64,000 nt of DNA. It comes from an uncultured Clostridia bacterium. GTDB lineage: Bacteria > Bacillota > Clostridia > TANB77 > CAG-508. The DNA lies in contig CAUWGE010000004.1 in NCBI GenBank assembly GCA_963558395.1, positions 3,446-67,445 on the forward strand, given 5' to 3'. The notes beneath the pieces are model-generated. The model was not told where the DNA came from. It saw nothing but the letters and a program-made list of their open reading frames with translations, and ran no database searches. The translations under genes were made by a program, and so were the position numbers. Position 1 is the stretch's first letter; the number at the start of each line of letters is the position of its first letter. Below are positions 9,717 to 36,807 of this stretch, piece by piece.

Positions 9717-9839
9717 TTACTATTATTTTTCTATATTATTTACATTCTTTATATTTTTATGTATGAATTTTTAATTTTTTGAATAAGAATCAATTTTTAG
9801 GAAATACTTTAACTAAATTTAACTTTTATGGAGGTACAA

Positions 9840-10166
9840 ATGACGAAAAATAAATCTATTCAATTAATTGGAAGAATTATAACAGCTTCAGTTGTATTAG
9901 GAATTACCGCATTTTTTACACCGGACATTGGTAATCCGAATTTTCTCATAGTTATTATTGGTATCTTTTCTCTTTCACTTTTTGACTTTTTAATTAGTTC
10001 ATATACAAAAATTTTTTCTAACCAACTAGTAAAAGGAATTATTGCATTTGTTTTATGTTCAATAACTCTTTATATTATTCAATACATTATGATTGGATAT
10101 AGTTTATCTTGGATATCTGCAATTTTAGGTGCATTAGTATATTCAATTGCAATTTATATGCTTTAA
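9840..10166 (+). CDS. small multi-pass membrane protein (function unknown)
   Basis: Three or four hydrophobic helices. Start moved to ATG 9840, which follows the SD GGAGG. Confidence 0.5.
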   Translation: MTKNKSIQLIGRIITASVVLGITAFFTPDIGNPNFLIVIIGIFSLSLFDFLISSYTKIFSNQLVKGIIAFVLCSITLYIIQYIMIGYSLSWISAILGALVYSIAIYML

Positions 10167-10212
10167 AAAAACATCTACTTACTTAAAAGTATCTTTAAGT
10201 AAGTAGATATTT

Positions 10213-11703
10213 TTAAAATGCTAAAACAACTCTAAATCCTTCACTATTATTACTGCTTCCACTATATCCATTAAAGCTAAATAAGCCCATTCCACTCGCG
10301 CCTCTATAATCTCCTCCTCTAATGAAAAATGGTATATCATTTTGAGGAAAGAAAGAAGCATTTAAGTTCCACGCATCATTTCCATATCCCGAATTTGAAC
10401 TCTCATATATAGCATCCCCTCTTCTTTTTAATGTTAATGCATAATGTTTATTTGAATATTCTTGAGAGTAATTTTGTGCTTTATCTATATCATCATTTTC
10501 GTAAACAGTTTTATATTTTGAATTTCTGCTTCCATAAATATCTTTATCACTGCCACCACCATTTGTTTTTAACCCTTCATATCCATTATCTATATATGCT
10601 GCAATATATTCCCAAGCACCCCCGCTTAAGTCATATACACCTGTTGCATTTCCTGCCGAACTTTGAGAGGCATTTGACAAATACACACTCTTTTCTATAT
10701 TACTTCCACCTGTTCTATAATCCGAATTTTTATTAATCTCAAGTGGTATTGCACCTATTCCATACTTACTATATGCTAAATATGCAACAGCTCCCCACTC
10801 ACTATTTTTCATCAAATGGCTGTCTCTGTTCCTTGCATAATTAAAACTATTTAAATAACAATTATTTATATTTATGTTTCTCCAACTAGTTGCTCCAGGT
10901 TTGCTAACTGCTTTTATAGTATCTGATGTAGCGACATTTCCAATTTCACTAGATGAAGTAACTATATTTTCTTTGTCTTTTTCCATGCTCATTTCATATT
11001 TAGCTACCCAAATTCCTGCTAGCTCTTTGCTCCATCCACCATTTCTATATCCACTAGCTACATCTTTTACAAATGCTGGTGCTACAATATAATGATTATC
11101 TGTTTGTCTTATTCCTGCATTATTTGTGGCAATTCTTGTAAAGCTACCATCTACATTTAATTTTAGTATTCCTCTTGCATCTGTATATCCTATAACCTTT
11201 GAATATTGTGAATCTGAATAATATACTATTCTATATGCATATCTTGGTATCCACACAAAATAGCTACCATTCTCATCTATTGCATTTGCCCATTCTTGTT
11301 CTTTATAATTGTACCACTCGGTTTCTTCATCTTTTACTTCTTCAAAAGCTGTTTTTTTACTATTGTAACTTAATTTTGTCATTCCACCAAGACAAGGTAT
11401 TAATGGCTCATCAATAATATTGTTTTCTTCATCTACCCATACAATCTCAACTTTTCCATATTTTCTATTCAGAATTTCATTTTGGTCATCTTTTATTTTA
11501 ATATTTTCCTGCTCAAGAATCCTATCATTTTCTTCTTGAATAATATCTTCTTCTGAAACTTTATTTTCACTAATAGTTACGTTTGGCTTCTTTTTATTTT
11601 TATTAAGTCCTAAAAAAATTCCACATATTATTAAACTAAAAATAATAATTATTACAGATGTAACAATTATTATTTTTTTAACATTACTATTTTTATTTTC
11701 CAT
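10213..11703 (-). CDS. membrane-anchored FGE-sulfatase/C-type-lectin-like protein; paralog of the two DGR targets but without a VR matching the TR
   Basis: N-terminal TM. Shares blocks with the targets (FVWIPRYAY vs FVWIPVASE; GIWVAKYEMS vs GFYIGRFEAG; GGAWEYIAAY vs GNCWEWTMEA; C-terminal RGGDY...EGFRVVLAF). Confidence 0.6.
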   Translation of the reverse strand: MENKNSNVKKIIIVTSVIIIIFSLIICGIFLGLNKNKKKPNVTISENKVSEEDIIQEENDRILEQENIKIKDDQNEILNRKYGKVEIVWVDEENNIIDEPLIPCLGGMTKLSYNSKKTAFEEVKDEETEWYNYKEQEWANAIDENGSYFVWIPRYAYRIVYYSDSQYSKVIGYTDARGILKLNVDGSFTRIATNNAGIRQTDNHYIVAPAFVKDVASGYRNGGWSKELAGIWVAKYEMSMEKDKENIVTSSSEIGNVATSDTIKAVSKPGATSWRNININNCYLNSFNYARNRDSHLMKNSEWGAVAYLAYSKYGIGAIPLEINKNSDYRTGGSNIEKSVYLSNASQSSAGNATGVYDLSGGAWEYIAAYIDNGYEGLKTNGGGSDKDIYGSRNSKYKTVYENDDIDKAQNYSQEYSNKHYALTLKRRGDAIYESSNSGYGNDAWNLNASFFPQNDIPFFIRGGDYRGASGMGLFSFNGYSGSSNNSEGFRVVLAF

Positions 11704-11717
11704 AGTATCTCCTCATG

Positions 11718-12155
11718 TTATTTTAATTCTTTTCTGTCTTGTTCAATTTCTTTTAGTGTTCTTTCTAATGTTTTCTCTAATTCGGCTAAGATATTGTCTG
11801 CATATTCTTTAGCTCCTTGCGTAATTTGTCTTGAATTCTCATTTGCAGATTCCATAATTTCATTTTTTTGTTCATATGCTTTTTTAGTTATTTCATGTTC
11901 GTCAATCATTGCAATTATTCTGTTTTCAGCTTCTTTTACAACATCTTCAGCTTCTTTTCTTGCTTCTTCTAAAATTCTTTCTCTTTCTTCTCTTACCCAT
12001 TTAGCTTGCTTTAAGTCTTCTGGCATCTTTAGTCTTATTTCTTTTATTAATTCCATAACTTCTTCTTGCTCAATTATTGCTTTTCCTGTAAAAGGTACCT
12101 TTTTTGAATTTTCAAACAATTCTTCTAATCTTTCTAGTAAAGTAAATATTTCCAT
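11718..12155 (-). CDS. hypothetical coiled-coil, E/K-rich protein
   Basis: ORF with an SD (AGAGAGGAAA) ahead of ATG 12155. Function not recognised. Confidence 0.5.
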   Translation of the reverse strand: MEIFTLLERLEELFENSKKVPFTGKAIIEQEEVMELIKEIRLKMPEDLKQAKWVREERERILEEARKEAEDVVKEAENRIIAMIDEHEITKKAYEQKNEIMESANENSRQITQGAKEYADNILAELEKTLERTLKEIEQDRKELK

Positions 12156-12181
12156 ATTGTTTCCTCTCTTTTTTTGCATTA

Positions 12182-12733
12182 CTATTTTAAACTCGCAAAA
12201 ACCAAATGAGCCCTTCCATACTTTCTTTGGTCTATTATATTTATCCCTTCTATTTTCTTTATCTCCTGCACATCTCTATCTACTTCGTCTGTTTCTATTA
12301 CTATTATTACATCATTAGTTAAAATTTTCTTTTTTAACAAAAGTTCTATGCTTTTACCTACAACACCTAATTTATATGGTGGGTCTAAAAACACTATATC
12401 TATTTTTTCATCTAATGAACTAATTGCTTCTATATAGCTTTTTTTAAAGATTACTGCTTTTTCTTTTAAATGAGCCTTTTCTAGATTTTGTTTTATAATG
12501 TAAATAGCTTCCGAATTGATATCACAAAAATATGCTTTTTTGGCTCCTCTGCTTAAAGCTTCTATTCCAAGTGCTCCACTACCTGCAAAAAGATCTAGAA
12601 TAACTTTATCTTTAATATCATTTTGCAAAATATTAAACATAGATTCTTTTACTCTATCCAATGTTGGCCTTGTTGAACTACTCTCAATAGAATTAAGTTT
12701 TGTTCCTCTTGCTAATCCACTAATTACTCTCAT
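12182..12733 (-). CDS. rsmD: 16S rRNA (guanine966-N2)-methyltransferase
   Basis: SAM-binding DLFAGSGALGIEALSRGA and the DPPY motif. Confidence 0.85.
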   Translation of the reverse strand: MRVISGLARGTKLNSIESSSTRPTLDRVKESMFNILQNDIKDKVILDLFAGSGALGIEALSRGAKKAYFCDINSEAIYIIKQNLEKAHLKEKAVIFKKSYIEAISSLDEKIDIVFLDPPYKLGVVGKSIELLLKKKILTNDVIIVIETDEVDRDVQEIKKIEGINIIDQRKYGRAHLVFASLK

Positions 12734-12900
12734 ATTCCTATTTTAACTTTAAATCCTTTCTTGTCAATAGAAATAACGAAATTGTAATATTTCCTTAATA
12801 TCTATGTAACACACATATTTTACCATAAAATTTGCACGAAATAAAGGGATATACGCCATTTTATTGCATATATCCCTTTATTTTGTTACAAATTTGTAAT

Positions 12901-13353
12901 TTACCCATCTTTATTTATATCTTTTAATAATTCTAGTTGAGAAATAAGTAAAGATTCCATTTTTGCCTTATAAACATCAAATTGTTTTTGAATATCATCT
13001 AAGGCCCTTTGTTTTTCAACCACTTGAATATCAATAGCATTAGTAATTTCCTTTGACTTACTTTCTGCTTCTCTTATAATTTGGTCTGCTTGCTTTTGTG
13101 CTGCATTTCTTACTTCATCAGCTGCTGACTGTGCCATAAGTAAAGTATTTTGTAGTGTTGATTCTATTTTTACATAATTTTCAAGCTTTGAATTTAATTC
13201 ATCAACTTTTCTTTCACTTTCTGACACTTGTCTATATATATTTGAATAATCTTTTGTTAGTTCATCTAAAAAATCATCAACCTCTTCTGGATCATATCCA
13301 TTTAGAGTCTTTTTTGAAAATCTTTTATTTTCAATATCTAGTGGTGTAATCAT
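12901..13353 (-). CDS. divIVA: DivIVA-domain cell-division protein
   Basis: N-terminus MITPLDIENKRFSKKTLNGYDPEEVDDFLDEL, followed by coiled coil. Confidence 0.85.
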   Translation of the reverse strand: MITPLDIENKRFSKKTLNGYDPEEVDDFLDELTKDYSNIYRQVSESERKVDELNSKLENYVKIESTLQNTLLMAQSAADEVRNAAQKQADQIIREAESKSKEITNAIDIQVVEKQRALDDIQKQFDVYKAKMESLLISQLELLKDINKDG

Positions 13354-27504: not shown

Positions 27505-27579
27505 TGGCAGGGGTAGAAGGATTTGAACCCTCACGCACGGTTTTGGAGACCGGAATGCTACCATTAACATCATACCCCT
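27505..27579 (-). tRNA. trnW: tRNA-Trp (anticodon CCA), 3' CCA encoded
   Basis: Reverse complement: AGGGGTATGATGTTAATGGTAGCATTCCGGTCTCCAAAACCGTGCGTGAGGGTTCAAATCCTTCTACCCCTGCCA. Acceptor stem AGGGGTA/TACCCCT, anticodon loop CTCCAAA, T-arm GGTTCAAATCC. Confidence 0.85.
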
Positions 27580-27683
27580 ATCAGTAACATATATAATAAT
27601 AGCACAATTCTTTTTTTTTATCAAGTAGAATTTTAATATTTTTATATTATATTTTACTTTTCATTCCGGTTTTTATTTACTGG

Positions 27684-28500
27684 TGTTTTGTAGGAACCAA
27701 AACAGTTCCTACAAAACATCTATTCTTCTAATGTACATACTACATCAAATATTCTATTTTTTGATGTACACTTTTCTCTTTATCAGGGCTCAGATCTACT
27801 TTATATAAAGTGTGGGACGAAATGCACCGGAGTCGTTGCCGTTGTCCGGAGAGAGGACGTTACGATAAGAAACTGGATAACCGCGGTAATAGTAGCCTCC
27901 GCGCTCCACACGATCGCCACTGTTATTGGCTTCCATTGTCCATTCCCAACAGTTTCCTGCTAGGTCATAGATGTTTTTTGATACATCTTTTTCGACTGCT
28001 CCTGTTAATTCTGGTTTATCTTTTCTTGGTGTGGTTCTCTGGCTATCTCCTATATACCTACACATTGCATCCCATTGACTTCCATAGCATAATGTACTTG
28101 TTACACTTGTATATTTCTCTTGAACTGCAAAATTCTTTGCTAAATACACTGCTCCACTTTTCCCTTCTATTTCACTTGCATCATTCATTGCTTTTCCCCA
28201 TGGTACATAATTATATGGTGCTACTCCTCTTTTTACTACTACTTTTTGTGCTGGTGTAACTTTTGTTCTTGGAGTGGTACTATCTACTCCTGCTTCAAAA
28301 CGTCCTATATAAAATCCTCCATATTTTAATACCTGTGTTTTCATGGTATCATATTCTTCAGCCTCTTTTGGATATCCGTTAGCATATGGTTCTGTATAAT
28401 CTACTGATAAGCCAGTCGTTGGCTTTCCTGTACTTGTGTTAAACGCTGTTCTTTTTAAATCTGCTTCACTTGCAACTGGTATCCACACAAATTGATTTCC
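27684..28500. repeat. 817-bp direct repeat, copy 1 (3' two-thirds of DGR target gene, VR, and 125-nt downstream flank)
   Basis: Reads identical to 43561..44377 (offset 15877). The track gives identical 149-aa antisense ORFs (27810..28259 and 43687..44136) and identical C-terminal protein sequence from GNQFVWIPVASE to the stop. Confidence 0.85.
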
Positions 28501-28911
28501 CATATTGACTCCAGAACTTTCTAGTGTATCTCCTTCTTTATCTGATATAACGATTCCTGTATCGATATTTCCTCCTACATAATAAAATCCTTTTGGTAAT
28601 GGCACTGATTTTCCTTTTCCATTGTCAATTACGTCTACTTTATCTTTATCCCATCCAGCTGGCATTTTGGTTCCTTCATTTTCTCCTAATCCATCTATAA
28701 AATTTGCTACCTCCTGCATTTCTACTTGTTCATTTTTCTCTGCATTTTTCCATATATCTGTTGCATTTTGTGCTCTTTTAAATATTCCGTTATTCCCTAT
28801 ACTTAGGCTAATAGCTACTCCTGCTAGTATTAATAATACTATTATTGTTACTACTAATGCTACTAATGTTATTCCTGTTTCTCCTTTTTTCATTCTTCCT
28901 TTTACTTTCAT
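27796..28911 (-). CDS. DGR variable protein 1: pilin-like N-terminal hydrophobic segment plus FGE-sulfatase/C-type-lectin-like C-terminal domain carrying VR1
   Basis: N-terminus KKGETGITLVALVVTIIVLLILAGVAISL. C-terminus GNCWEWTMEANNSGDRVERGG...GAFRPTLYIK. The last ~124 nt match the TR with A-specific differences. Confidence 0.85.
   Translation of the reverse strand: MKVKGRMKKGETGITLVALVVTIIVLLILAGVAISLSIGNNGIFKRAQNATDIWKNAEKNEQVEMQEVANFIDGLGENEGTKMPAGWDKDKVDVIDNGKGKSVPLPKGFYYVGGNIDTGIVISDKEGDTLESSGVNMGNQFVWIPVASEADLKRTAFNTSTGKPTTGLSVDYTEPYANGYPKEAEEYDTMKTQVLKYGGFYIGRFEAGVDSTTPRTKVTPAQKVVVKRGVAPYNYVPWGKAMNDASEIEGKSGAVYLAKNFAVQEKYTSVTSTLCYGSQWDAMCRYIGDSQRTTPRKDKPELTGAVEKDVSKNIYDLAGNCWEWTMEANNSGDRVERGGYYYRGYPVSYRNVLSPDNGNDSGAFRPTLYIK
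27809..27932 (-). repeat. DGR variable repeat VR1
   Basis: Gap-free alignment to TR 40662..40785. By hand count, 21 of 22 mismatches are at TR coding-strand adenines. Confidence 0.85.
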
Positions 28912-29134
28912 TAGTCCTTTTTCCCTTTCTTTTGTATTTTGCTTCTTTTTATAGTTATGTTCATTTTTATATAACTATTTGTTCTATTTTTTATTTTAGC
29001 ATACTCATTTTAATTTTGCTTTTTATCTTCCTTAATTTCAAGTTTCTCATCAAAAAAACCATGCATTTTAGATACGTCTAAAATACATAGCTTCTTTGCT
29101 ATATTTACATAAATCTATTTTATTAAAACTTACG

Positions 29135-29155
29135 ATATATATATATATATATATA
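29135..29155. repeat. (AT)10 dinucleotide microsatellite
   Basis: A 21-nt perfect AT run read directly, about 225 nt upstream of the start of DGR target 1. Confidence 0.9.
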
Positions 29156-29299
29156 CAGCCTCAGGGCTTTCAGCGTTTTTTATCATGTTTTTCTCCTTTG
29201 TTTTACAGCTATATGTTATACATCTTCTTCAAATTTGTCAATTATTTTACAGTATTTGAATTTTAATATTTTTGTGCTAAATTTGCTAATTATAAAATA

Positions 29300-30099: not shown

Positions 30100-30300
30100 A
30101 GTAAGTCAAATTCAAAACACTTTCTCTTATTGCTCTTCTTGTACAATAATCTTTTCCGTATCTATTATATATGCTACAAATTGCAATCATATCATCTTTT
30201 AATCCACTTTGTTTCTAAAATGTATTGTTATGACATATTGGACAATATAACAACCCTGCCACTAGATGTTCTGTATTTTTTTGCTTCCCTAACCAATACA
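30100..30300 (-). pseudogene. relic of a large serine recombinase (zinc-ribbon region only, with an in-frame stop)
   Basis: Hand translation: VYWLGKQKNTEHLVAGLLYCPICHNNTF*KQSGLKDDMIAICSIYNRYGKDYCTRRAIRESVLNLTYSFIK*. This resembles the GLLxCxxCG...YxCxxYxxxGxxxCxxxxIxExxL recombinase zinc beta-ribbon. Confidence 0.35.
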
Positions 30301-30317
30301 CATTAAACAAAATATTG

Positions 30318-31436
30318 TTAATTATACAATGGAGATAATTTTCTCAAATTATTAACAATTTCAACTAGACATTTTATAGTATAATCAATTTCTTCTTTAT
30401 TATTATCTTTTCCTATACTAATTCTTATAGTACTATGTGCTATAGTGTCTGATAACCCTATTGCTTTTAATACATGAGAAGATTCTAAACTTCCTGTAGT
30501 ACATGCACTTCCTGTTGATACATATATACCTCTTTTATCTAATTCTTGTAATATATTATCCGCTTCTATAAAATCAAAAGAAACACTTATATTTCCTGGT
30601 ATTCTATTTATTAAATCTCCATTTATTTTTATTCCTTGTATATCTTTTTGGGTTTTATTTATAAAATAATTACTTAATTCAATTGTTTTTTTATTATTTT
30701 CTTCTAAATTTTCATAGACTAAAGACATTGCTTTAGCTAATCCAACTATACCAGCAACATTTTCTGTTCCAGCTCTTCTATTTCTTTCTTGATGTCCACC
30801 GTTTAAATATTTTCTAAATTTTATTCCATCCCTTAAATAAAGTACCCCTATCCCCTTTGGTCCATAAAATTTATGTGCTGATAAAGAAAGTGAATCTATA
30901 TTCATGTTTTTAACATCTATTTTTATATTACCTATTGCTTGTACACTGTCTGTATGAAATAAAATATTATTCTTCGTTGCAATTTTGCTTATTTCATTTA
31001 CTGGTTGAATCGTTCCTATTTCATTATTTGCAAATATTATTGATATTAAAATTGTATCTTTTCTTATTTTTTCTTCCAAATCTTTTAAATCCACAATTCC
31101 ATTTTTGTTTACTTTAACATATGAGACTTCGAACCCTTCTCTTTCCAATTCTTTACAAGTATCTAAAATTGCTGGATGTTCTATGGTGCTTGTAATAATA
31201 TGGTTTCCCTTTAAAGCATTTCCTAATGCGATTCCCTTTAAAGCCATATTATCAGATTCACTTCCTCCGCTTGTAAAATATATCTCATTTGGATTTGCAT
31301 TTAAATATAAAGCAACTTTTTTTCTTGCTTCCTCAATTGTTCTTTTATTATCCCTACCTATTTTATAAGCTGATGAAGGATTTCCATAATTTTCTTTTAA
31401 ATATGAAATCATTTCTTCAAAGACTCTATTATCCAT
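30318..31436 (-). CDS. cysteine desulfurase (NifS/IscS family); the first ~12 conserved codons lie in another frame upstream
   Basis: SAHKFYGPKGIG (PLP Lys) and GSACTTGS (active Cys). Upstream, ATG 31471 encodes MEVYLDNAATTK in the -1 frame. Confidence 0.8.
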   Translation of the reverse strand: MDNRVFEEMISYLKENYGNPSSAYKIGRDNKRTIEEARKKVALYLNANPNEIYFTSGGSESDNMALKGIALGNALKGNHIITSTIEHPAILDTCKELEREGFEVSYVKVNKNGIVDLKDLEEKIRKDTILISIIFANNEIGTIQPVNEISKIATKNNILFHTDSVQAIGNIKIDVKNMNIDSLSLSAHKFYGPKGIGVLYLRDGIKFRKYLNGGHQERNRRAGTENVAGIVGLAKAMSLVYENLEENNKKTIELSNYFINKTQKDIQGIKINGDLINRIPGNISVSFDFIEADNILQELDKRGIYVSTGSACTTGSLESSHVLKAIGLSDTIAHSTIRISIGKDNNKEEIDYTIKCLVEIVNNLRKLSPLYN

Positions 31437-31577
31437 TTTGTGGTTGCTGCATTATCTAAATATACTTCCATTATTATCACTTCTTTCTTCTTGTATTATA
31501 ACATACAAGATTTATATTTTAAATATATTGACAAAATTTAACTCTTATTATATTCTTTGTATATAGGAGGCGATATT

Positions 31578-31982
31578 TTGAATAATATAAGAGTAGGTTG
31601 TTCTGTTTTAATAAAATCAAATAATAAATTATTATTAGGAATTAGAAACAAAGAACCCAATAAAGGATTAGCCATTACTCCTGGTGGAGGAGTAGAATTA
31701 TTTGAAAATATGATAAATACAGTAAAAAGAGAAATTATGGAAGAAACCGGTTTAGAAATTACAAATATCAAACAATTAAAAACTTATGAAATTATTAATA
31801 AACCTGATGAACATCGAATCATAATATATTGGTCAGCAGATTATGATAAAAACTCTATTCATTCTGCAAGTGATTTAACAAATGCTAAATTTTATAGTAA
31901 AGAAGAAATTCAAGAATTGGATAAACTAGGAAAATTAAGTAGTATTACAAAGCAAGTTTTATCTGATAACAATTGGCTATAA
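31578..31982 (+). CDS. NUDIX hydrolase
   Basis: Nudix box GGGVELFENMINTVKREIMEETGLEI. Probable TTG start at 31578, 7 nt after the SD AGGAGG. Confidence 0.75.
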   Translation: MNNIRVGCSVLIKSNNKLLLGIRNKEPNKGLAITPGGGVELFENMINTVKREIMEETGLEITNIKQLKTYEIINKPDEHRIIIYWSADYDKNSIHSASDLTNAKFYSKEEIQELDKLGKLSSITKQVLSDNNWL

Positions 31983-31998
31983 AAATAGAACTAGGTAG

Positions 31999-32853
31999 TT
32001 ATCTATCTAGTTCTATCTCTTTACTTATTGACCTTTCTATATTCCATACTTCAAATACACAGAATTTTTCCTCATATATATTCATCATTATACCAAAGGG
32101 GGTTCTTGGCATTTGAATGTTCCCATAAATAACTTTATCTATACACTCATCATATAATTTTTTAAACAACTTATAATCTAAACGTGGTGTTTCTTCTGGT
32201 ATACTATTAACCATTTTCTGAACTCCTTGTTCTTTTAAATTGGAAACCAATTCATTTATTCTGTTATTTCTAGACACTCTATATTGTTCATCATTTATCT
32301 GAAATAATCCATTCCATACCATTTTTGCATCTTTATAATTATGTATAGGCTTTTCATAAATGGAATCCCAAGGTATTTGAATTGCTGTATGTACTGTTTT
32401 TCCTCGTGTAATATCTCCAACATCAAATCCAGGGCCGACATAATCAATTAAAATTCTATCTCCTTTTTCAAATACTACCATAATAGCACCATTAGTTCTA
32501 TATCTTGGAGTATAATGTCCTGTTAGCATAGTTGATGGATGTTTAGACATTAGGATTACACCATCTTCAGTACATTCTTTTATTTCTTTTAAGTAATTAT
32601 TTATATCATCTAGTTTAACATCTCTTCCTCGTATCATTTTATATCCCTGCCCAATTGGAGCATCCGTTCTACATAAAAGAGGTTCCTCTCCGAATATTTC
32701 TCTTATTTTTGGATTATTAGTATCTATATAATCTCTTAAAATATATACATCTCCAAAGGATTGTAATCCCAAACTATTGCAAATATCCCAACCTTTTAAT
32801 TTTCCGTATCTAGATATAATTTCTCTATCTTCCGCCTTTATCAAAGACCTCAT
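31999..32853 (-). CDS. hypothetical protein (284 aa), last gene of the uncharacterised operon
   Basis: An SD (GGAGAGAAGGA) precedes ATG 32853. Overlaps the upstream gene by 29 nt. No family recognised. Confidence 0.5.
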   Translation of the reverse strand: MRSLIKAEDREIISRYGKLKGWDICNSLGLQSFGDVYILRDYIDTNNPKIREIFGEEPLLCRTDAPIGQGYKMIRGRDVKLDDINNYLKEIKECTEDGVILMSKHPSTMLTGHYTPRYRTNGAIMVVFEKGDRILIDYVGPGFDVGDITRGKTVHTAIQIPWDSIYEKPIHNYKDAKMVWNGLFQINDEQYRVSRNNRINELVSNLKEQGVQKMVNSIPEETPRLDYKLFKKLYDECIDKVIYGNIQMPRTPFGIMMNIYEEKFCVFEVWNIERSISKEIELDR

Positions 32854-33685
32854 TATCCTTCTCTCCTATTTCTCTTTTTTTAAAATCAACCAACCAGCCT
32901 TCTAAACTTTTCATATTTACTACTGAATATCTGAGACCACTTTTTAGTAATATCAAACTTCCAACCGTTGCCTGTATTTCTCCTGAAATATATTCAGGTT
33001 TTGATATCCTTTCATATTCTTTATGAACAGGAGCATCCTTTCCTCCAAAAAGGTTTAATTGTCTGCTTTCTTCTAATAAATTTTGTCTAACTTTATTGGA
33101 AATATTTGTAAAATTATTATATTCTGGCTTTATAAAATATTTTTTACATCTCTCATCAATACTTCGTAAAATAGATTCGTATTTTTGCATAAGCATTCTA
33201 TCAATTTCTTCTTGTTCTCTATCTATTATAAAATTATTCATTTTATAGGAAGAATTTACTCTAGATGCTATCCCTAATTTAGATATTTGACTTTCTATTT
33301 GCCTTGCCATTCTACCATTTGGAGTCTGAGCCAAAAATATAGAATACAATGCTCCTTGTTCTAATATTCTCTCATATCTTCTATAACTTGCTGCTGTTCC
33401 AACCTTTAATTTATCATTTGCAAAATAAGCAAGATAAACATGATGTCCTTCATGACAAAACTCTCTTGCTTTACCACTATTAGTTTGGCATGTGCTACCA
33501 TTACACCCCAAGCACAAATCAAATCCGGATTTTTCTTGGCATTCCTTGCATTGACTATATCCACTATCTGTCAAATTACTAAAAGATTTACATGGTACAA
33601 TTTCTTTTTTTATTAAATCATAATATCCTTTACAATGTTTTTCCATTGTTTTTTTCACTTCTATAATTCCGTTCACAATCTTCAT
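32825..33685 (-). CDS. Cys-rich (putative zinc-ribbon) protein, possibly DUF2797-like
   Basis: N-terminal cysteines (CKECQEK...CLGCNGSTC...CHEGHHVYLAYF), then KLKVGTAASYRRYERILEQGA. The family call is from memory only. The start is uncertain because there is no SD at 33685. Confidence 0.45.
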   Translation of the reverse strand: MKIVNGIIEVKKTMEKHCKGYYDLIKKEIVPCKSFSNLTDSGYSQCKECQEKSGFDLCLGCNGSTCQTNSGKAREFCHEGHHVYLAYFANDKLKVGTAASYRRYERILEQGALYSIFLAQTPNGRMARQIESQISKLGIASRVNSSYKMNNFIIDREQEEIDRMLMQKYESILRSIDERCKKYFIKPEYNNFTNISNKVRQNLLEESRQLNLFGGKDAPVHKEYERISKPEYISGEIQATVGSLILLKSGLRYSVVNMKSLEGWLVDFKKREIGEKDNEVFDKGGR

Positions 33686-33763
33686 ATTGCATAGAATGTG
33701 TTACATTATCATACAATAATATTTTTGGTTTTTCATCCATCCATTTTATTCCTAAAAATTGTT

Positions 33764-34447
33764 TTATTCCCATATTGATGTTCCTTTCATCTTTTGGAAA
33801 TGTGGTCTTAATTTCTTAATTATTTCTATCATCCAGTCTTTTCTAATGTTTTCATTCCATAAAGCCCTATCTAATGCATTTATGTCTTTTGCAATTAATT
33901 TTCTAATAAATTGTGATTCCACTACTGGTGCATCTGCTAAAAACATTTCTCCATTTTGATTCTCATAATATAAATATGGTATATTTCGAGTTTTTTGATT
34001 TAATATTTCATTATAATCTTTTAAACTTCTTAATTCATATCCATATTTATGAAATTTATTTTTTACATCTGTATCAACAGCAACAATATGTAGATGTGCA
34101 TGATCAGAACAAGATCCACCTTTTGCTGAACAAGATAACGCTCCATGTTCATAAAATACGGATTTTCCGTAATTTTGTTCAAAAACTTTTTTTAACTCTT
34201 CTTTTATAATTTTCAATTCTTCAATTTGATTTTTCGGTAATTGTGATATTGATAAGCAATGCTCCTTTGGCACTATTAATAAATATCCTGGAACTAAAGG
34301 TCCTACCATAGGCATTATTACAAATTTATGTGTAGTTGCTACTATTCTGCTATTTAACCCTTCTTTTTCAAATTCGTCTTTTAAATATATATTAAAAAAA
34401 TTGTTTTCTTCTTTTCCATTTATTTCACTACAAAATGAACATTCCAT
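33764..34447 (-). CDS. HIT-superfamily nucleotide hydrolase/transferase-like protein
   Basis: Histidine triad DHAHLHIVAV, N-terminal CSFC, and a ~90-aa C-terminal extension. Confidence 0.65.
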   Translation of the reverse strand: MECSFCSEINGKEENNFFNIYLKDEFEKEGLNSRIVATTHKFVIMPMVGPLVPGYLLIVPKEHCLSISQLPKNQIEELKIIKEELKKVFEQNYGKSVFYEHGALSCSAKGGSCSDHAHLHIVAVDTDVKNKFHKYGYELRSLKDYNEILNQKTRNIPYLYYENQNGEMFLADAPVVESQFIRKLIAKDINALDRALWNENIRKDWMIEIIKKLRPHFQKMKGTSIWE

Positions 34448-34453
34448 ATATTA

Positions 34454-34867
34454 TTACCTCTCTTCTCCTAATTCTTTTTCATATTCTTTATTATTAATAG
34501 ATTTTACACATTTTTCTAACATTCTATATCCTACATTCATATTGTTGAAATCAGCTTTTGTTCCCCACCAATGATTGTTATTATCATATATAGTGTAATC
34601 TGTCCAATCTAATCTATTTAGTTTACCTTCATTAAACACTGGTGATCCAGGCAATGGTACAAATCTATACAAACTAATTCTATGTATATATTCTCTTAAC
34701 TCTTTTAAATATTGTATTGTTTCTAAACTTGATTCAATATTTTCCCCTGGATACCCATGCATTATATATAATTTAACAGGTATACCATTTTTATGCAACC
34801 TTTTTATTACTTCTTTAGCATTTTCCTTAATTTTAAAAGTAAATTCCATAGGAGGAATAATCGGAAT
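34454..34867 (-). pseudogene. C-terminal fragment of a radical SAM (B12-binding/elongator-type) enzyme, N-terminus removed at the IS30 junction
   Basis: The frame is open up to 34867 (..IPIIPPMEFTFK..). It contains the typical distal segment YIMHGYPGENIESSLETIQYLKEL...FVPLPGSPVF but no CxxxCxxC, and no N-terminal half is found beyond the IS. Confidence 0.55.
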
Positions 34868-36300
34868 TTAGTTTTAATAAAAAATATTGTATAATTAAAT
34901 TAATACTTTTCTTGGGGACAAGGAGGTATTTTATGTCAAATCAAAAACATTTATCTTTAGAGGATCGTAATTACATTGAACAAGCTCTTAGTCAAAATAT
35001 GTCTTTTAAGGAAATTGCTAAGTTTCTTTGTAAGGACCCTACTACTATCTCTAAAGAAATTAAAAAACATAAGATTAGAAAAGAACCTAATACTTTTAAT
35101 AATACATCCGGAAATATTTGTACTAAAAGATTTCTTTGCGAGAAGAAGAATGTTTGTGGGCTTAATTGTACTAAAAAATGTGCTCGTTGTAACAAGTGTA
35201 ATAAGTTTTGTAGTGACTTTGAAGAAGAGATTTGCCCTGCTTTAAAAACTGCTCCTTATGTTTGTAATCCTTGTAAAAATAAGTCCTCTTGTAGATTAGT
35301 TAAGTTTTACTATCATGCTATGCCTTCATATAAACAGTATAAAAATCTTTTATCTACTTCTAGGCAAGGTCCTAATATTTCTGATGAAGACTTAACTGAT
35401 TTAGATAATTTAGTATCCCCTGCTTTAAAGGATGGTCAAAGTCTTTCTCACATCTTCGATACTCAAGAAATTCCTTGTTGTAAAACTACTCTTTACAATT
35501 ATGTTTCTTCTAATTTACTTACTGCTAGAAACATTGACATTCCTAGAAAAGTTAGGATGTCATCTAGAAAATCTAAACGTTCTACTCCTAAAGATTCTGC
35601 TATTCGTAAAGGTAGAACTTATCTAGATTTTCAAAATTATTTACTAGATAATCCTGATTCTTCTGTTGTTGAAATGGATACTGTTGAAGGTAAAAAAGGT
35701 GGTAAAGTTTTACTTACTTTTCTTTTTAGAAATTCGAAGCTTATGTTAAGTTTCATCATGGACGACAAAACTTCTAATTCTGTTTTAAAAGTATTTAACT
35801 GGCTAGAAGCTATTTTAGGCAATGAACTTTTTGAAAAGACTTTCCCTGTTATTCTTACAGACAATGGTTCAGAATTTTCTAATCCTCTTAGTCTCGAATT
35901 TAACAATGAAGGTATTGGTAGAACTAGAATATTCTTTTGTGACCCTTCTGCTTCTTACCAAAAGGGAGCTATTGAGAAGAACCACGAATTTATTAGGTAT
36001 ATACTTCCTAAAGGAACCTCTTTTGACGAGCTTACCCAAAAAGATATTACTAAAATGATTAACCACATCAATAGTTATTCTAGGACCAGTTTAAACCATA
36101 CTACACCATTTGACCTAGCTTCACTTTTGTTAGACAAAAGAGTAATAAAAAAGTTAGATCTCACAAAGGTACCAGCCAATGAGATCCAACTCAAACCAAA
36201 ACTACTAAAGAAAAAATAAAATAATTTTTTAATAAATTTAACCCCAAGTAAAGTAGAGTGAATTTATTTTCCATAATTTAACGAGTGGAATTTAATTTTA
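34864..36300 (+). mobile_element. IS30-family insertion sequence (ends only approximate)
   Basis: A single transposase ORF abutting the truncated radical SAM gene. The inverted pair ACTTTTCTTGGGG (34904..34917) / CCCCAAGTAAAGT (36244..36256) flanks the ORF, but the true termini are unresolved. Confidence 0.6.
34933..36219 (+). CDS. IS30-family DDE transposase with Cys-rich insertion
   Basis: N-terminal HTH (LSLEDRNYIEQALSQNMSFKEIAKFL) and DDE region (VEMDTVEG, ILTDNGSEF, YQKGAIEKNHEFIR). Start at ATG 34933, after the SD AAGGAGG. Confidence 0.85.
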   Translation: MSNQKHLSLEDRNYIEQALSQNMSFKEIAKFLCKDPTTISKEIKKHKIRKEPNTFNNTSGNICTKRFLCEKKNVCGLNCTKKCARCNKCNKFCSDFEEEICPALKTAPYVCNPCKNKSSCRLVKFYYHAMPSYKQYKNLLSTSRQGPNISDEDLTDLDNLVSPALKDGQSLSHIFDTQEIPCCKTTLYNYVSSNLLTARNIDIPRKVRMSSRKSKRSTPKDSAIRKGRTYLDFQNYLLDNPDSSVVEMDTVEGKKGGKVLLTFLFRNSKLMLSFIMDDKTSNSVLKVFNWLEAILGNELFEKTFPVILTDNGSEFSNPLSLEFNNEGIGRTRIFFCDPSASYQKGAIEKNHEFIRYILPKGTSFDELTQKDITKMINHINSYSRTSLNHTTPFDLASLLLDKRVIKKLDLTKVPANEIQLKPKLLKKK

Positions 36301-36494
36301 AAAATTCTATTCCTGTCGTTTATTAACTATGCTCTCATTTTAAATTTTCTTCGTACTAATAATATTATACTATATTTTTTTGCAATTTCCAACTATATTT
36401 AATCAATCATTATATTTCTAATCATTGAAATACCTGAATTCTCTTTTGTTATAGTAAATTCAGCTAAAAGTGGAATTTACTTTTGAAACTAACC

Positions 36495-36543
36495 TTTACA
36501 TATTTTTTTATAATACATATTTTACATATTTTTTTATAATACA
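36495..36543. repeat. two perfect copies of the 23-nt unit TTTACATATTTTTTTATAATACA separated by 3 nt
   Basis: Read directly at 36495..36517 and 36521..36543, inside a ~560-bp non-coding stretch. Confidence 0.85.
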
Positions 36544-36737
36544 CTTAATTTAGAAAAGGGACAAAAATTATTTAAAGGATTTTTTTACACTACATATGGC
36601 GATTGGGTAAGTTAGAAGGAAAAAGAAAATCTTAATATTTTCTTTCAAAGAAGGCATATTCTAGAACACAATAATGGAATTGTTGACGAAAAATATAAAG
36701 AATTTTTATATAGTTTTATAGCTTTTCATAGAAAGTT

Positions 36738-36780
36738 AAAAATAAAGGAAATCTGCTAATCTTAGGTGACTAGCAGATTT
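36738..36780 (-). terminator. intrinsic terminator of the rplM-rpsI operon
   Basis: Stem AAATCTGCTA / TAGCAGATTT followed by CCTTTATTTTT on the - strand, about 30 nt after the rpsI stop. Confidence 0.65.
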
Positions 36781-36807
36781 ATATGTTTTATAAAATTAGT
36801 TCTGATT

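What the first reader, a model, noticed from the sequence alone, without database searches (positions are those of the whole stretch)
27684..28500. Two DGR targets carry identical VRs inside an 817-bp perfect direct repeat 15.9 kb apart
27684..28500 reads identical to 43561..44377 (offset 15877). The repeat covers the 3' ~700 nt of each target gene, the VR with all 21 A-derived substitutions, and 125 nt of downstream flank. The 5' parts of the genes are clearly diverged and carry indels. Independent mutagenic homing would not give identical VRs. So this is either a recent duplication or gene conversion after the last diversification event, or an assembly collapse of a polymorphic repeat. Copy 1 lies about 105 nt from a tRNA-Trp gene. 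Essential genes (rpsI, rplM, infC-rpmI-rplT) lie between the two copies.
Basis: seen in the sequence. Interest (0 to 1): 0.7.

Follow-up and report, generated by a model that had tools for sequence, protein, structure and literature searches.

The report
Identical DGR targets: probable assembly collapse
The window does contain two identical 817-base copies covering the hypervariable ends of two retroelement target genes, but other assemblies of the same strain indicate the genome holds two different copies that the assembler merged and wrote out twice.

Summary
Window 27684-28500 equals 43561-44377 exactly (817 nt, 0 mismatches). It covers the last 705 nt of two paralogous DGR target genes, both VRs (21 A-to-N changes against the TR) and 112 nt of flank. 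The 5' parts are about 20% different.

The identity is probably not biological, for four reasons.
- Four SPAdes contigs of the same species that span both loci show the same 817-nt perfect block, each with a different VR.
- Assemblies of one strain from three samples disagree only inside this block. Its content flips between two versions, and both copies always match.
- The only Flye-style contig has different copies (50 differences).
- A MEGAHIT k=127 assembly carries the window's own strain (100% over 13.2 kb). Its two contigs start exactly 127 nt before the first site where the copies differ, and each should run into its own flank. That requires different VRs.

The window's block is therefore a chimera of locus-1 SNPs and the locus-2 VR. 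Best explanation: repeat collapse with bubble popping, about 0.75. Real gene conversion: about 0.2. Recent duplication is rejected.

Real findings: a two-target Avd/MSL DGR, past recombination between the targets, and a conserved +1 frameshift in the RT.

The parts
27684..28500 (-). Copy 1 of the 817-nt perfect block: 3' 705 nt of target gene 1, VR1 and 112 nt of flank
   Evidence: Exact identity to 43561-44377.
43561..44377 (-). Copy 2 of the 817-nt perfect block: 3' 705 nt of target gene 2, VR2 and 112 nt of flank
   Evidence: An independent MEGAHIT contig of the same strain (L077) differs from it at 43964, 43952, 43934, 43908 and 43866 but has the same VR.
27796..28911 (-). DGR target gene 1 (371 aa), the remote target between a PNP_UDP_1 gene and tRNA-Trp
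   Evidence: ORF. Same locus in L048, L050, L058, L063, L064 and L068. Absent in L032 and L038. Present in strains without the DGR cassette, L065, L066 and L069.
43673..44833 (-). DGR target gene 2 (386 aa), the cassette-proximal target
   Evidence: ORF. A weak pilin-like N-terminus and a weak FGE-like C-terminus appear in the profile search.
27806..27932 (-). VR1
   Evidence: 82% identical to the TR. 21 of 23 differences fall at TR adenines.
43683..43809 (-). VR2
   Evidence: Identical to VR1 in the window. The same VR sits at locus 2 in L077.
40659..40785 (-). Template repeat (TR), downstream of the RT
   Evidence: 100% identical or one mismatch in all same-species contigs.
40835..41873 (-). 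DGR reverse transcriptase, in two frames joined by a +1 shift at an extra C (window 41693)
   Evidence: RVT_1 match. The joined protein matches RT profiles across the junction. Intact homologues lack the C.
41851..42225 (-). Avd accessory gene
   Evidence: Pfam bAvd, 68.3 bits against a cut-off of 40. NCBIfam DivGenRetAVD E=1.8e-18.
42222..42692 (-). MutS-domain-I-like (MSL) accessory gene
   Evidence: Pfam MutS_I, 25.1 bits against a cut-off of 20.6. MSL is a described DGR accessory class (PMC5758913).
42739..43503 (-). IS200-family insertion (Y1 transposase 42853-43362), about 60 nt beyond the end of copy 2; not part of the repeat
   Evidence: Y1_Tnp. Absent from L029 at this site. Present at the same site in L077 and at many other sites in the species.
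27684..27718 (-). 15-bp stem-loop that ends the block (terminator-like), the last homologous bases of the two loci
   Evidence: DNA fold of 27684-27830, z = -5.2. Homology ends here in all strains.
40138..45174 (-). DGR cassette that is present or absent between strains (target 2, MSL, avd, RT, TR and an 82-aa ORF; 4.3 kb without the IS)
   Evidence: Strains L065, L066 and L069 join window 45175 to 40137.
27505..27579 (-). tRNA-Trp, 104 nt from copy 1
   Evidence: ARAGORN.

Best explanation
The genome carries a real DGR in the order target 2, MSL, avd, RT, TR, plus a second remote target 12.8 kb beyond the TR. The 3' halves of the two targets are very similar but not identical. They differ at about five SNPs, in the VR, and at one base after the stop codon. 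A short-read de Bruijn assembler merged these differences as if they were strain bubbles, leaving one 817-nt graph edge. The layout is left flank, repeat, 15-kb middle, repeat, right flank. A path through that layout must cross the single edge twice, so the contig holds two copies that are identical by construction. The window's block is a chimera: SNPs inferred to be locus 1's in 28087-27989, joined to the VR and 27795 base seen at locus 2 in L077. Shown: the identity, the anatomy, the behaviour of other assemblies, and the disagreement with another assembly of the same strain. Inferred: which assembler made the window, and the sequence of locus 1 in that other assembly.
For: (1) Four SPAdes-named contigs that span both loci (L063, L064, L068, L037+L082) each carry a perfect block of exactly 817 nt with the window's boundaries. 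They carry three different block sequences. The only Flye-style contig (contig_27273, L062) shares just 139 nt and has 24 mismatches plus 3 gaps before the VR and 23 mismatches in the VR. (2) One strain was assembled from three samples of one study. L082 and L064 differ at 33 sites in 12.1 kb, all inside the block at locus 1. L071 and L064 differ at 34 sites in 12.4 kb, all inside the block at locus 2. The block flips between two versions while everything else is identical, and within each contig both copies agree. Those two versions are closely related to the two different copies in L062: its locus-1 VR is identical to one of them, its locus-2 VR differs from the other at 16 sites, and the SNP-cluster types match. 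(3) The window's own strain is in sample ERZ926607. L096 equals window 1-13208 at 100.000%. L077 equals window 44091-36853 except for 5 sites, all in the block, and it has the same IS200 insertion and the same VR. By record coordinates, the two MEGAHIT k=127 contigs start at window positions 28214 and 44091. Both starts lie exactly 127 nt before 28087/43964, the first site where L077 and the window differ. L077 is seen to continue into its own flank. The other contig is inferred to do the same from its length and the absence of indels. With k=127 that is only possible if the two copies differ at spacings under 127 nt all the way to the end of the block, which means in the VR and at 27795. The rule that a contig starts at the first difference plus k also fits L053 (28172 = 28031+141) and L054 (27824 = 27683+141). 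(4) The block spans the largest stretch that can be merged. It runs from the 15-nt indel at 28500 to the end of homology at 27684. (5) Short-read contigs of this region usually end at about -3.4 to -4.6 kb and +64.7 to +65.1 kb in window coordinates, and the window sits just inside these limits. (6) In related species, paralogous targets have different VRs, including two on one 236-kb contig.
Against: The assembler and reads behind the window are unknown. A long-read or isolate assembly would make the identity real. The first 15 kb of contig k127_100080 could not be fetched, so locus 1 in sample ERZ926607 is inferred from coordinates and graph logic, not read. Genuine recombinant haplotypes exist inside the block: the two SNP-cluster types switch within 9-12 nt, which is shorter than any k used. 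So exchange between the copies, or between strains, does happen. One block sequence is found at locus 1 in a MEGAHIT contig (L055) and at locus 2 in others (L034, L057).
Confidence: 0.75

Rival explanations
1. Real gene conversion. RecA-type non-reciprocal recombination between the two directly repeated target paralogs copied the 3' half, VR included, from one locus to the other after the last homing event. A crossover would delete the essential ribosomal genes between the copies, so only conversions survive.
For: The perfect tract ends at a heterology (the 15-nt indel), which is typical of conversion tracts. Real recombinant haplotypes occur in the block. One full block sequence occurs at locus 1 in L055 and at locus 2 in L034 and L057. 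Target 1 in cassette-bearing strains shows only the same two non-A differences from the TR as target 2, whereas orphan copies in cassette-less strains have 6-17.
Against: Starting from the copies implied by the MEGAHIT assembly of the same strain, two separate conversions in opposite directions are needed to reach the window's state. In sister assemblies the identical state flips content without any other change, which points to the assembler. L077 runs unbroken through the end of the block, which it could not do if locus 1 carried the same 305 nt.
Confidence: 0.2
2. Recent duplication of the target gene, with the copy inserted next to tRNA-Trp.
For: There are two paralogs in direct orientation. 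The target-1 segment is flanked by a 16-17-nt direct repeat and is absent from some strains.
Against: The 5' 447 columns differ by 67 mismatches and 32 gap columns, next to 0 differences in 817 nt. Locus 1 is occupied in a sister clade that lacks the DGR cassette and target 2 altogether.
Confidence: 0.02
3. Both VRs were written by the DGR itself from the same or identical cDNA.
For: Both VRs match the same TR.
Against: The identity extends 568 nt upstream and 122 nt downstream of the VR, where there is no TR homology. Adenine mutagenesis is random for each cDNA. The window's TR has G at 40723 while both VRs keep T, so neither VR is a fresh full-length copy of the present TR.
Confidence: 0.01

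Closest known systems
DGRs with more than one target gene (survey of Wu et al., Nucleic Acids Res 2018, PMC5758913)
   Same: One RT/TR serves two targets whose VRs are homologous to the TR. [quoted passage not shown] That survey noted a Stenotrophomonas DGR with eight tandem targets but only five unique VRs, and suspected assembly error. This is the same kind of doubt.
   Different: Here the second target is remote. It lies 12.8 kb from the TR, beyond ribosomal protein genes, and is not inside the cassette.
MSL-containing DGR architecture (Architecture D of Wu et al.; the Legionella DGR has an MSL gene)
   Same: The order is target, MSL, avd, RT, with the TR nearby. MSL occurs together with avd and without HRDC.
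   Different: The TR lies downstream of the RT. The RT needs a +1 frameshift. The host is an uncultured AT-rich gut Clostridia lineage.
Repeat collapse and bubble popping in short-read de Bruijn assemblies (established knowledge of SPAdes/metaSPAdes and MEGAHIT behaviour, not tested here by running an assembler)
   Same: The perfect identity covers exactly the mergeable homology block. It appears in every loop-resolved contig, and its content disagrees between assemblies of one strain.
   Different: The merged variation is not strain variation. It is two paralogous hypervariable regions in one genome.
Concerted evolution of bacterial paralogs by gene conversion, such as tufA/tufB or rRNA operons (own knowledge)
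   Same: The repeats are in direct orientation with essential genes between them, and mosaic haplotypes show past exchange.
   Different: For this window, perfect present-day identity is not supported by the independent assembly of the same strain.

Membership tests
Diversity-generating retroelement (DGR) | TR/VR pair whose differences fall almost only at TR adenines | tested here: met
   21 of 23 differences are at adenines. Across 8 VR types the counts are 16-27 adenine-site differences against 2-5 others.
Diversity-generating retroelement (DGR) | Reverse transcriptase gene next to the TR | tested here: met
   RVT_1 E=2.9e-20. The joined protein aligns over 97% of its length with intact 334-343-aa homologues. 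It needs a +1 shift at 41693.
Diversity-generating retroelement (DGR) | Avd accessory protein | tested here: met
   Pfam bAvd above its cut-off. NCBIfam DivGenRetAVD scores 66.8 bits, below its cut-off of 80.
Diversity-generating retroelement (DGR) | VR at the 3' end of the target ORF, followed by an IMH-like segment that differs from the TR copy, and by inverted repeats | tested here: met
   The VR ends 10 nt before the stop codon. TR and VR diverge after GCATTTCGTCCCACACT. There are two hairpins in the 112-nt flank. These hairpins are AT-rich, not the GC-rich type of the Bordetella phage.
Diversity-generating retroelement (DGR) | Evidence of activity: VRs vary between strains while the TR stays fixed | tested here: met
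   VRs differ at 16-31 of 127 positions between samples, and the TR has at most one mismatch. L032 and L034 differ only in the 3' half of the VR.
Diversity-generating retroelement (DGR) | Target protein with a C-type-lectin/FGE-like variable domain | tested here: inconclusive
   No Pfam hit. The profile search against the PDB gives pFGE 1y4j at E=0.025 over residues 332-384. The AlphaFold model has mean pLDDT 43.5 and is unusable.
Gene conversion between paralogs (as the cause of the identity in this window) | Identity tract bounded by diverged paralogous sequence | tested here: met
   0 differences in 817 nt next to 67 mismatches and 32 gaps in 447 columns. Collapse gives the same pattern.
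Gene conversion between paralogs (as the cause of the identity in this window) | The identical state is reproduced by an assembly that cannot create it | tested here: not met
   MEGAHIT k=127 contigs of the same strain keep the two copies apart from 28087 onward. The Flye-style contig of another strain has different copies. The locus-1 copy in the MEGAHIT assembly was inferred, not read.
Assembly collapse of a repeat | The same perfect block appears in other loop-resolved short-read contigs, with content that contradicts other assemblies of the same strain | tested here: met
Assembly collapse of a repeat | Reads show two haplotypes and double coverage over the block | not testable with these tools
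   No reads or coverage are available for the window.

The most novel reading that the evidence does not exclude
The identity is real and recurrent. In this species a newly written VR would be copied quickly to the second target by conversion, perhaps triggered by DGR-induced damage at the target. The two receptors, which have different stalks, would then always share one binding specificity while strains differ.
Probability: 0.15. Interest if true: 0.6.

Novelty: not a real feature. Interest (0 to 1): 0.15.

Why it matters
If the identity were real, it would show concerted evolution of DGR targets: a selected binding site spread between paralogs by recombination. That process has not been described for DGRs. 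None of my four literature searches turned up a report of it (two asked about it directly).

As it stands, the result is mainly a warning. Multi-target DGRs in short-read metagenome assemblies can show falsely identical VRs, or VRs attached to the wrong locus, because assemblers treat paralogous VRs as strain bubbles. Surveys that count unique VRs or infer DGR activity from assembled contigs inherit this error.

The solid biology here is a two-target DGR in a gut Clostridia lineage, with a remote target, a cassette that is present in some strains and absent in others, and an RT that depends on recoding.

Tried and rejected
- **Source of the window.** I looked up the exact target proteins and the 234-aa C-terminal fragment in the contig index. 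None is on record. An exact 75-nt search for the window's VR in the JGI metagenomes gave no hit. The window's source was not found.
- **GTDB genomes.** The nearest target is only 62% identical, so no close genome was available for synteny.
- **IS200 as cause of the repeat boundary.** Rejected. The insertion lies about 60 nt beyond the block, and the homology ends at the same base in strains without the IS.
- **tRNA-Trp as an integration site for a duplicated copy.** No support. The target-1 segment is bounded by a 16-17-nt direct repeat, not by the tRNA.
- **Long contigs.** A search for contigs over 200 kb of this species carrying both loci found none; the longest is 52.8 kb.
- **Related species.** Their paralogous targets have distinct VRs, and identical ones would not be resolved by short reads anyway.
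- **Target structure.** The AlphaFold model was too poor (mean pLDDT 43.5) for a fold search, so none was run. A single-sequence PDB search found nothing.
- **Earlier reading, now withdrawn.** Midway through I read the identical VR types at both loci in different samples as recurrent conversion. I withdrew this once the comparisons of the same strain showed the flip.

Full report
**1. Observation**

Window 27684-28500 and 43561-44377 are identical over exactly 817 nt, and the match stops dead at both ends. Everything relevant lies on the minus strand. Target 1 is 27796-28911 (371 aa) and target 2 is 43673-44833 (386 aa).

The block holds the last 705 nt of each gene, the VRs (27806-27932 and 43683-43809), and 112 nt of flank that ends in a strong 15-bp stem-loop. 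The TR is at 40659-40785. It differs from the VR at 21 adenines, plus one G/T site and one C/T site near the 3' end.

Upstream of the block the two genes differ by 67 mismatches and 32 gap columns in 447 columns. tRNA-Trp is 104 nt from copy 1.

**2. Anatomy**

The locus is a DGR. On the minus strand the order is:
- target 2
- an IS200-family insertion (42739-43503)
- an MSL gene carrying MutS domain I (42222-42692)
- avd (41851-42225)
- the RT (41873-40835)
- the TR

These are followed by a DUF1292 gene, infC-rpmI-rplT, rplM, rpsI, a variable island that starts with an IS30-like gene, a PNP_UDP_1 gene, target 1, and tRNA-Trp. MSL together with Avd is a described architecture (PMC5758913).

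The window has 28% G+C. The nearest genomes are uncultured gut Clostridia MAGs whose targets are at most 62% identical. The targets have a weak pilin-like N-terminal helix and a weak FGE-like C-terminus. The fold could not be confirmed.

**3. What the block is not**

- It is not a DGR product, because the identity runs 568 nt upstream and 122 nt downstream of the TR-homologous segment.
- It is not a recent whole-gene duplication, because the 5' halves are strongly diverged.
- It is not bounded by the IS200. The homology ends at the same base in strains that lack the insertion.

**4. The species in other samples**

The window's exact Avd, MSL, GAPDH and RpsI proteins occur in 58 to about 200 blocks of the metagenome assembly collection. 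The TR is invariant apart from one G/T site. VRs differ at 16-31 of 127 positions, almost only at TR adenines. L032 and L034 differ only in the 3' half of the VR, as expected from a partial homing event. The DGR has therefore been active.

Gene content at the two loci also varies:
- Locus 1 is missing in L032 and L038.
- The whole cassette, window 40138-45174, is missing in L065, L066 and L069, which still carry target 1.
- VRs of those orphan copies have 6-17 non-adenine differences from this TR, against 2 in cassette-bearing strains.

Locus 1 is thus the older resident. Target 2 travels with the cassette.

**5. Contigs that hold both loci**

| Contig | Name style | Copies in the block |
|---|---|---|
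| contig_27273 (L062) | Flye-like | Different: 24 mismatches + 3 gaps before the VR, 23 mismatches in the VR; 139 nt shared at the end |
| L063 | SPAdes | Perfect 817-nt block, same boundaries as the window |
| L064 | SPAdes | Perfect 817-nt block, same boundaries as the window |
| L068 | SPAdes | Perfect 817-nt block, same boundaries as the window |
| L037+L082 | SPAdes | Perfect 817-nt block, same boundaries as the window |

The four SPAdes contigs carry three different block sequences. At first this looked like recurrent concerted evolution.

**6. Why I read it as an artefact**

L064, L071 and L082 come from three samples of one study. They are identical outside the block.
- L071 and L064 differ at 34 sites in 12.4 kb, all in the block at locus 2.
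- L082 and L064 differ at 33 sites in 12.1 kb, all in the block at locus 1.

So one strain appears with version X at both loci in one assembly, version Y at both loci in another, and X at locus 2 in a third. X and Y are closely related to the two different copies in the Flye-style contig of another strain. Its locus-1 VR is identical to Y's, its locus-2 VR differs from X's at 16 sites, and the SNP-cluster types match.

The layout is flank, repeat, 15-kb interval, repeat, flank, which is a simple loop in a de Bruijn graph. If the differences between the copies are popped as bubbles, the single remaining edge is traversed twice and both copies come out identical by construction. That assemblers behave this way is established knowledge, and I did not run one. 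The block also spans exactly the mergeable stretch, from a 15-nt indel to the end of homology.

**7. The window's own strain**

Sample ERZ926607 (run ERR318680, MEGAHIT, k=127) carries the window's own strain.
- Contig k127_100080 (locus L096) matches window 1-13208 at 100.000%.
- Contig k127_88038 (locus L077) matches window 44091-36853 with only 5 mismatches, and it includes the same IS200 insertion.
- All 5 mismatches are in the block, at the equivalents of 28087, 28075, 28057, 28031 and 27989.
- The VR and the private base at 27795 are the same as in the window.

By record coordinates, k127_100080 starts at window position 28214 (13208 + 15006) and k127_88038 starts at 44091 (28214 + 15877). 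Both starts are exactly 127 nt before 28087/43964. A unitig assembler begins two contigs at that point when two sequences diverge there.

The same rule (start = first differing base + k) holds for L053 (28172 = 28031 + 141) and L054 (27824 = 27683 + 141). L077 is seen to run unbroken into its own flank. The other contig is inferred to reach its own flank from its length. With k=127 this requires differences less than 127 nt apart all the way to the end of the block, which means in the VR and at 27795.

So in this strain locus 2 carries the window's VR and locus 1 carries another. The window's block is a chimera: SNPs inferred to belong to locus 1, joined to the VR and the 27795 base seen at locus 2. 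The switch must fall in the 61 nt between 27989 and the first variable VR site. That fits an assembler with k of 55 or so.

The coordinate argument also assumes there is no indel in that stretch.

**8. Supporting hint**

Short-read contigs of this region usually end about 3.4-4.6 kb before window position 1, and at about 64.7-65.1 kb, at a repeated PDDEXK_2 gene. The 64-kb window lies just inside these limits, as it would if it were cut from such a contig. This is circumstantial.

**9. What stays real**

Exchange within the block has happened in the past. Switches between the two SNP-cluster types occur within 9-12 nt in L051, L052 and L058, which is shorter than any k used, so those molecules exist. 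One block sequence sits at locus 1 in the MEGAHIT contig L055 and at locus 2 in L034 and L057. Target 1 in cassette-bearing strains also tracks the TR. Gene conversion is therefore part of this family's history, but the window's perfect identity is not good evidence for a recent event.

**10. Verdict**

| Explanation | Confidence |
|---|---|
| Assembly collapse | about 0.75 |
| Real conversion | about 0.2 |
| Recent duplication or DGR origin | negligible |

The earlier survey that met a similar case (eight targets, five unique VRs) also suspected assembly error (PMC5758913). Interest in the finding as stated is low.

**11. Seen in passing: the RT frameshift**

The RT is split by one extra C at 41693 (ACATATAAACAT-C-GGAGGATAT).
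- Intact homologues read TYKHGGY, encoded as CAT GGA GGA.
- The extra C is inferred in every same-species contig, where the RT is always called as 76-aa and 251-aa ORFs. It was read directly in a mouse-gut MAG of another species (L013).
- Between the two species dN/dS is 0.08 before the site and 0.04 after it, with dS of 1-1.9.
- The 0-frame codon at the site is CGG, at 0.35 per 1000 codons. The +1 codon GGA is a common codon (467 of 11,554).

This looks like a programmed +1 frameshift in a DGR RT. The one full-text search I ran listed no paper describing one (only one of the 22 hits was opened). It deserves its own follow-up.

Noticed in passing
window 41693 (minus strand), RT 40835-41873: The DGR reverse transcriptase needs a +1 frameshift at CAU-C-GGA-GG. 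One extra C is present relative to intact homologues. The RT is called as the same two ORFs in every same-species contig, and the extra C was read directly in a second species (L013). Both halves are under strong purifying selection (dN/dS 0.04-0.08). The 0-frame codon is the very rare CGG. This is probably programmed recoding, and the one literature search I ran did not turn up a report of it for a DGR.
   Followed up: partly
window 40138-45174: The whole DGR cassette (target 2, MSL, avd, RT, TR and an 82-aa ORF) is present in some strains and absent in others. L065, L066 and L069 lack it but keep target 1, and their VRs have drifted from this TR at non-adenine sites.
   Followed up: partly
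window about 27640-29256: The target-1 segment is absent in L032 and L038. In the window it is flanked by a 16-17-nt direct repeat (AAAAATATTAAAATTC). In the L032-type strains the gene at locus 2 is a chimera: a locus-2 start followed by locus-1-type sequence.
   Followed up: partly
window 40723 (TR): The TR is polymorphic: G in the window, L031, L035 and L037, and T elsewhere. Every VR has T. No full-length homing event has therefore copied the present TR in the G strains. VR types are shared across several samples, so diversification is slow.
   Followed up: partly
window 42739-43503: This IS200-family element (Y1 transposase) is specific to the window's strain at this site (also in L077). 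It is found at many other sites in the species, for example after ftsH, after secY, and near the transketolase genes.
   Followed up: partly
window 28219-28350 and loci L051, L052, L058: There are two haplotypes of a 12-SNP cluster inside the block. Genuine recombinants switch between them within 9-12 nt.
   Followed up: partly
window 30100-36800: A variable island of about 6.6 kb lies between rpsI and the PNP_UDP_1 gene. It holds an IS30-like HTH_38 gene, HIT, DUF2797, NUDIX and an aminotransferase. It is present in the window and L063, L064 and L068, and absent in L062, L065 and L032.
   Followed up: no
just beyond window 64000 (about 64.7-65.1 kb) and about 3.4-4.6 kb before position 1: Most short-read contigs of this species break at these two places. 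The upper break is at a repeated PDDEXK_2 (transposase-like) gene.
   Followed up: no
L059 9195-11745: A related DGR with 76% RT identity and an intact RT has the same order (target, MSL, avd, RT). It sits among an integrase, a Mob_Pre relaxase and phage-like regulators, so the cassette family is mobile.
   Followed up: no
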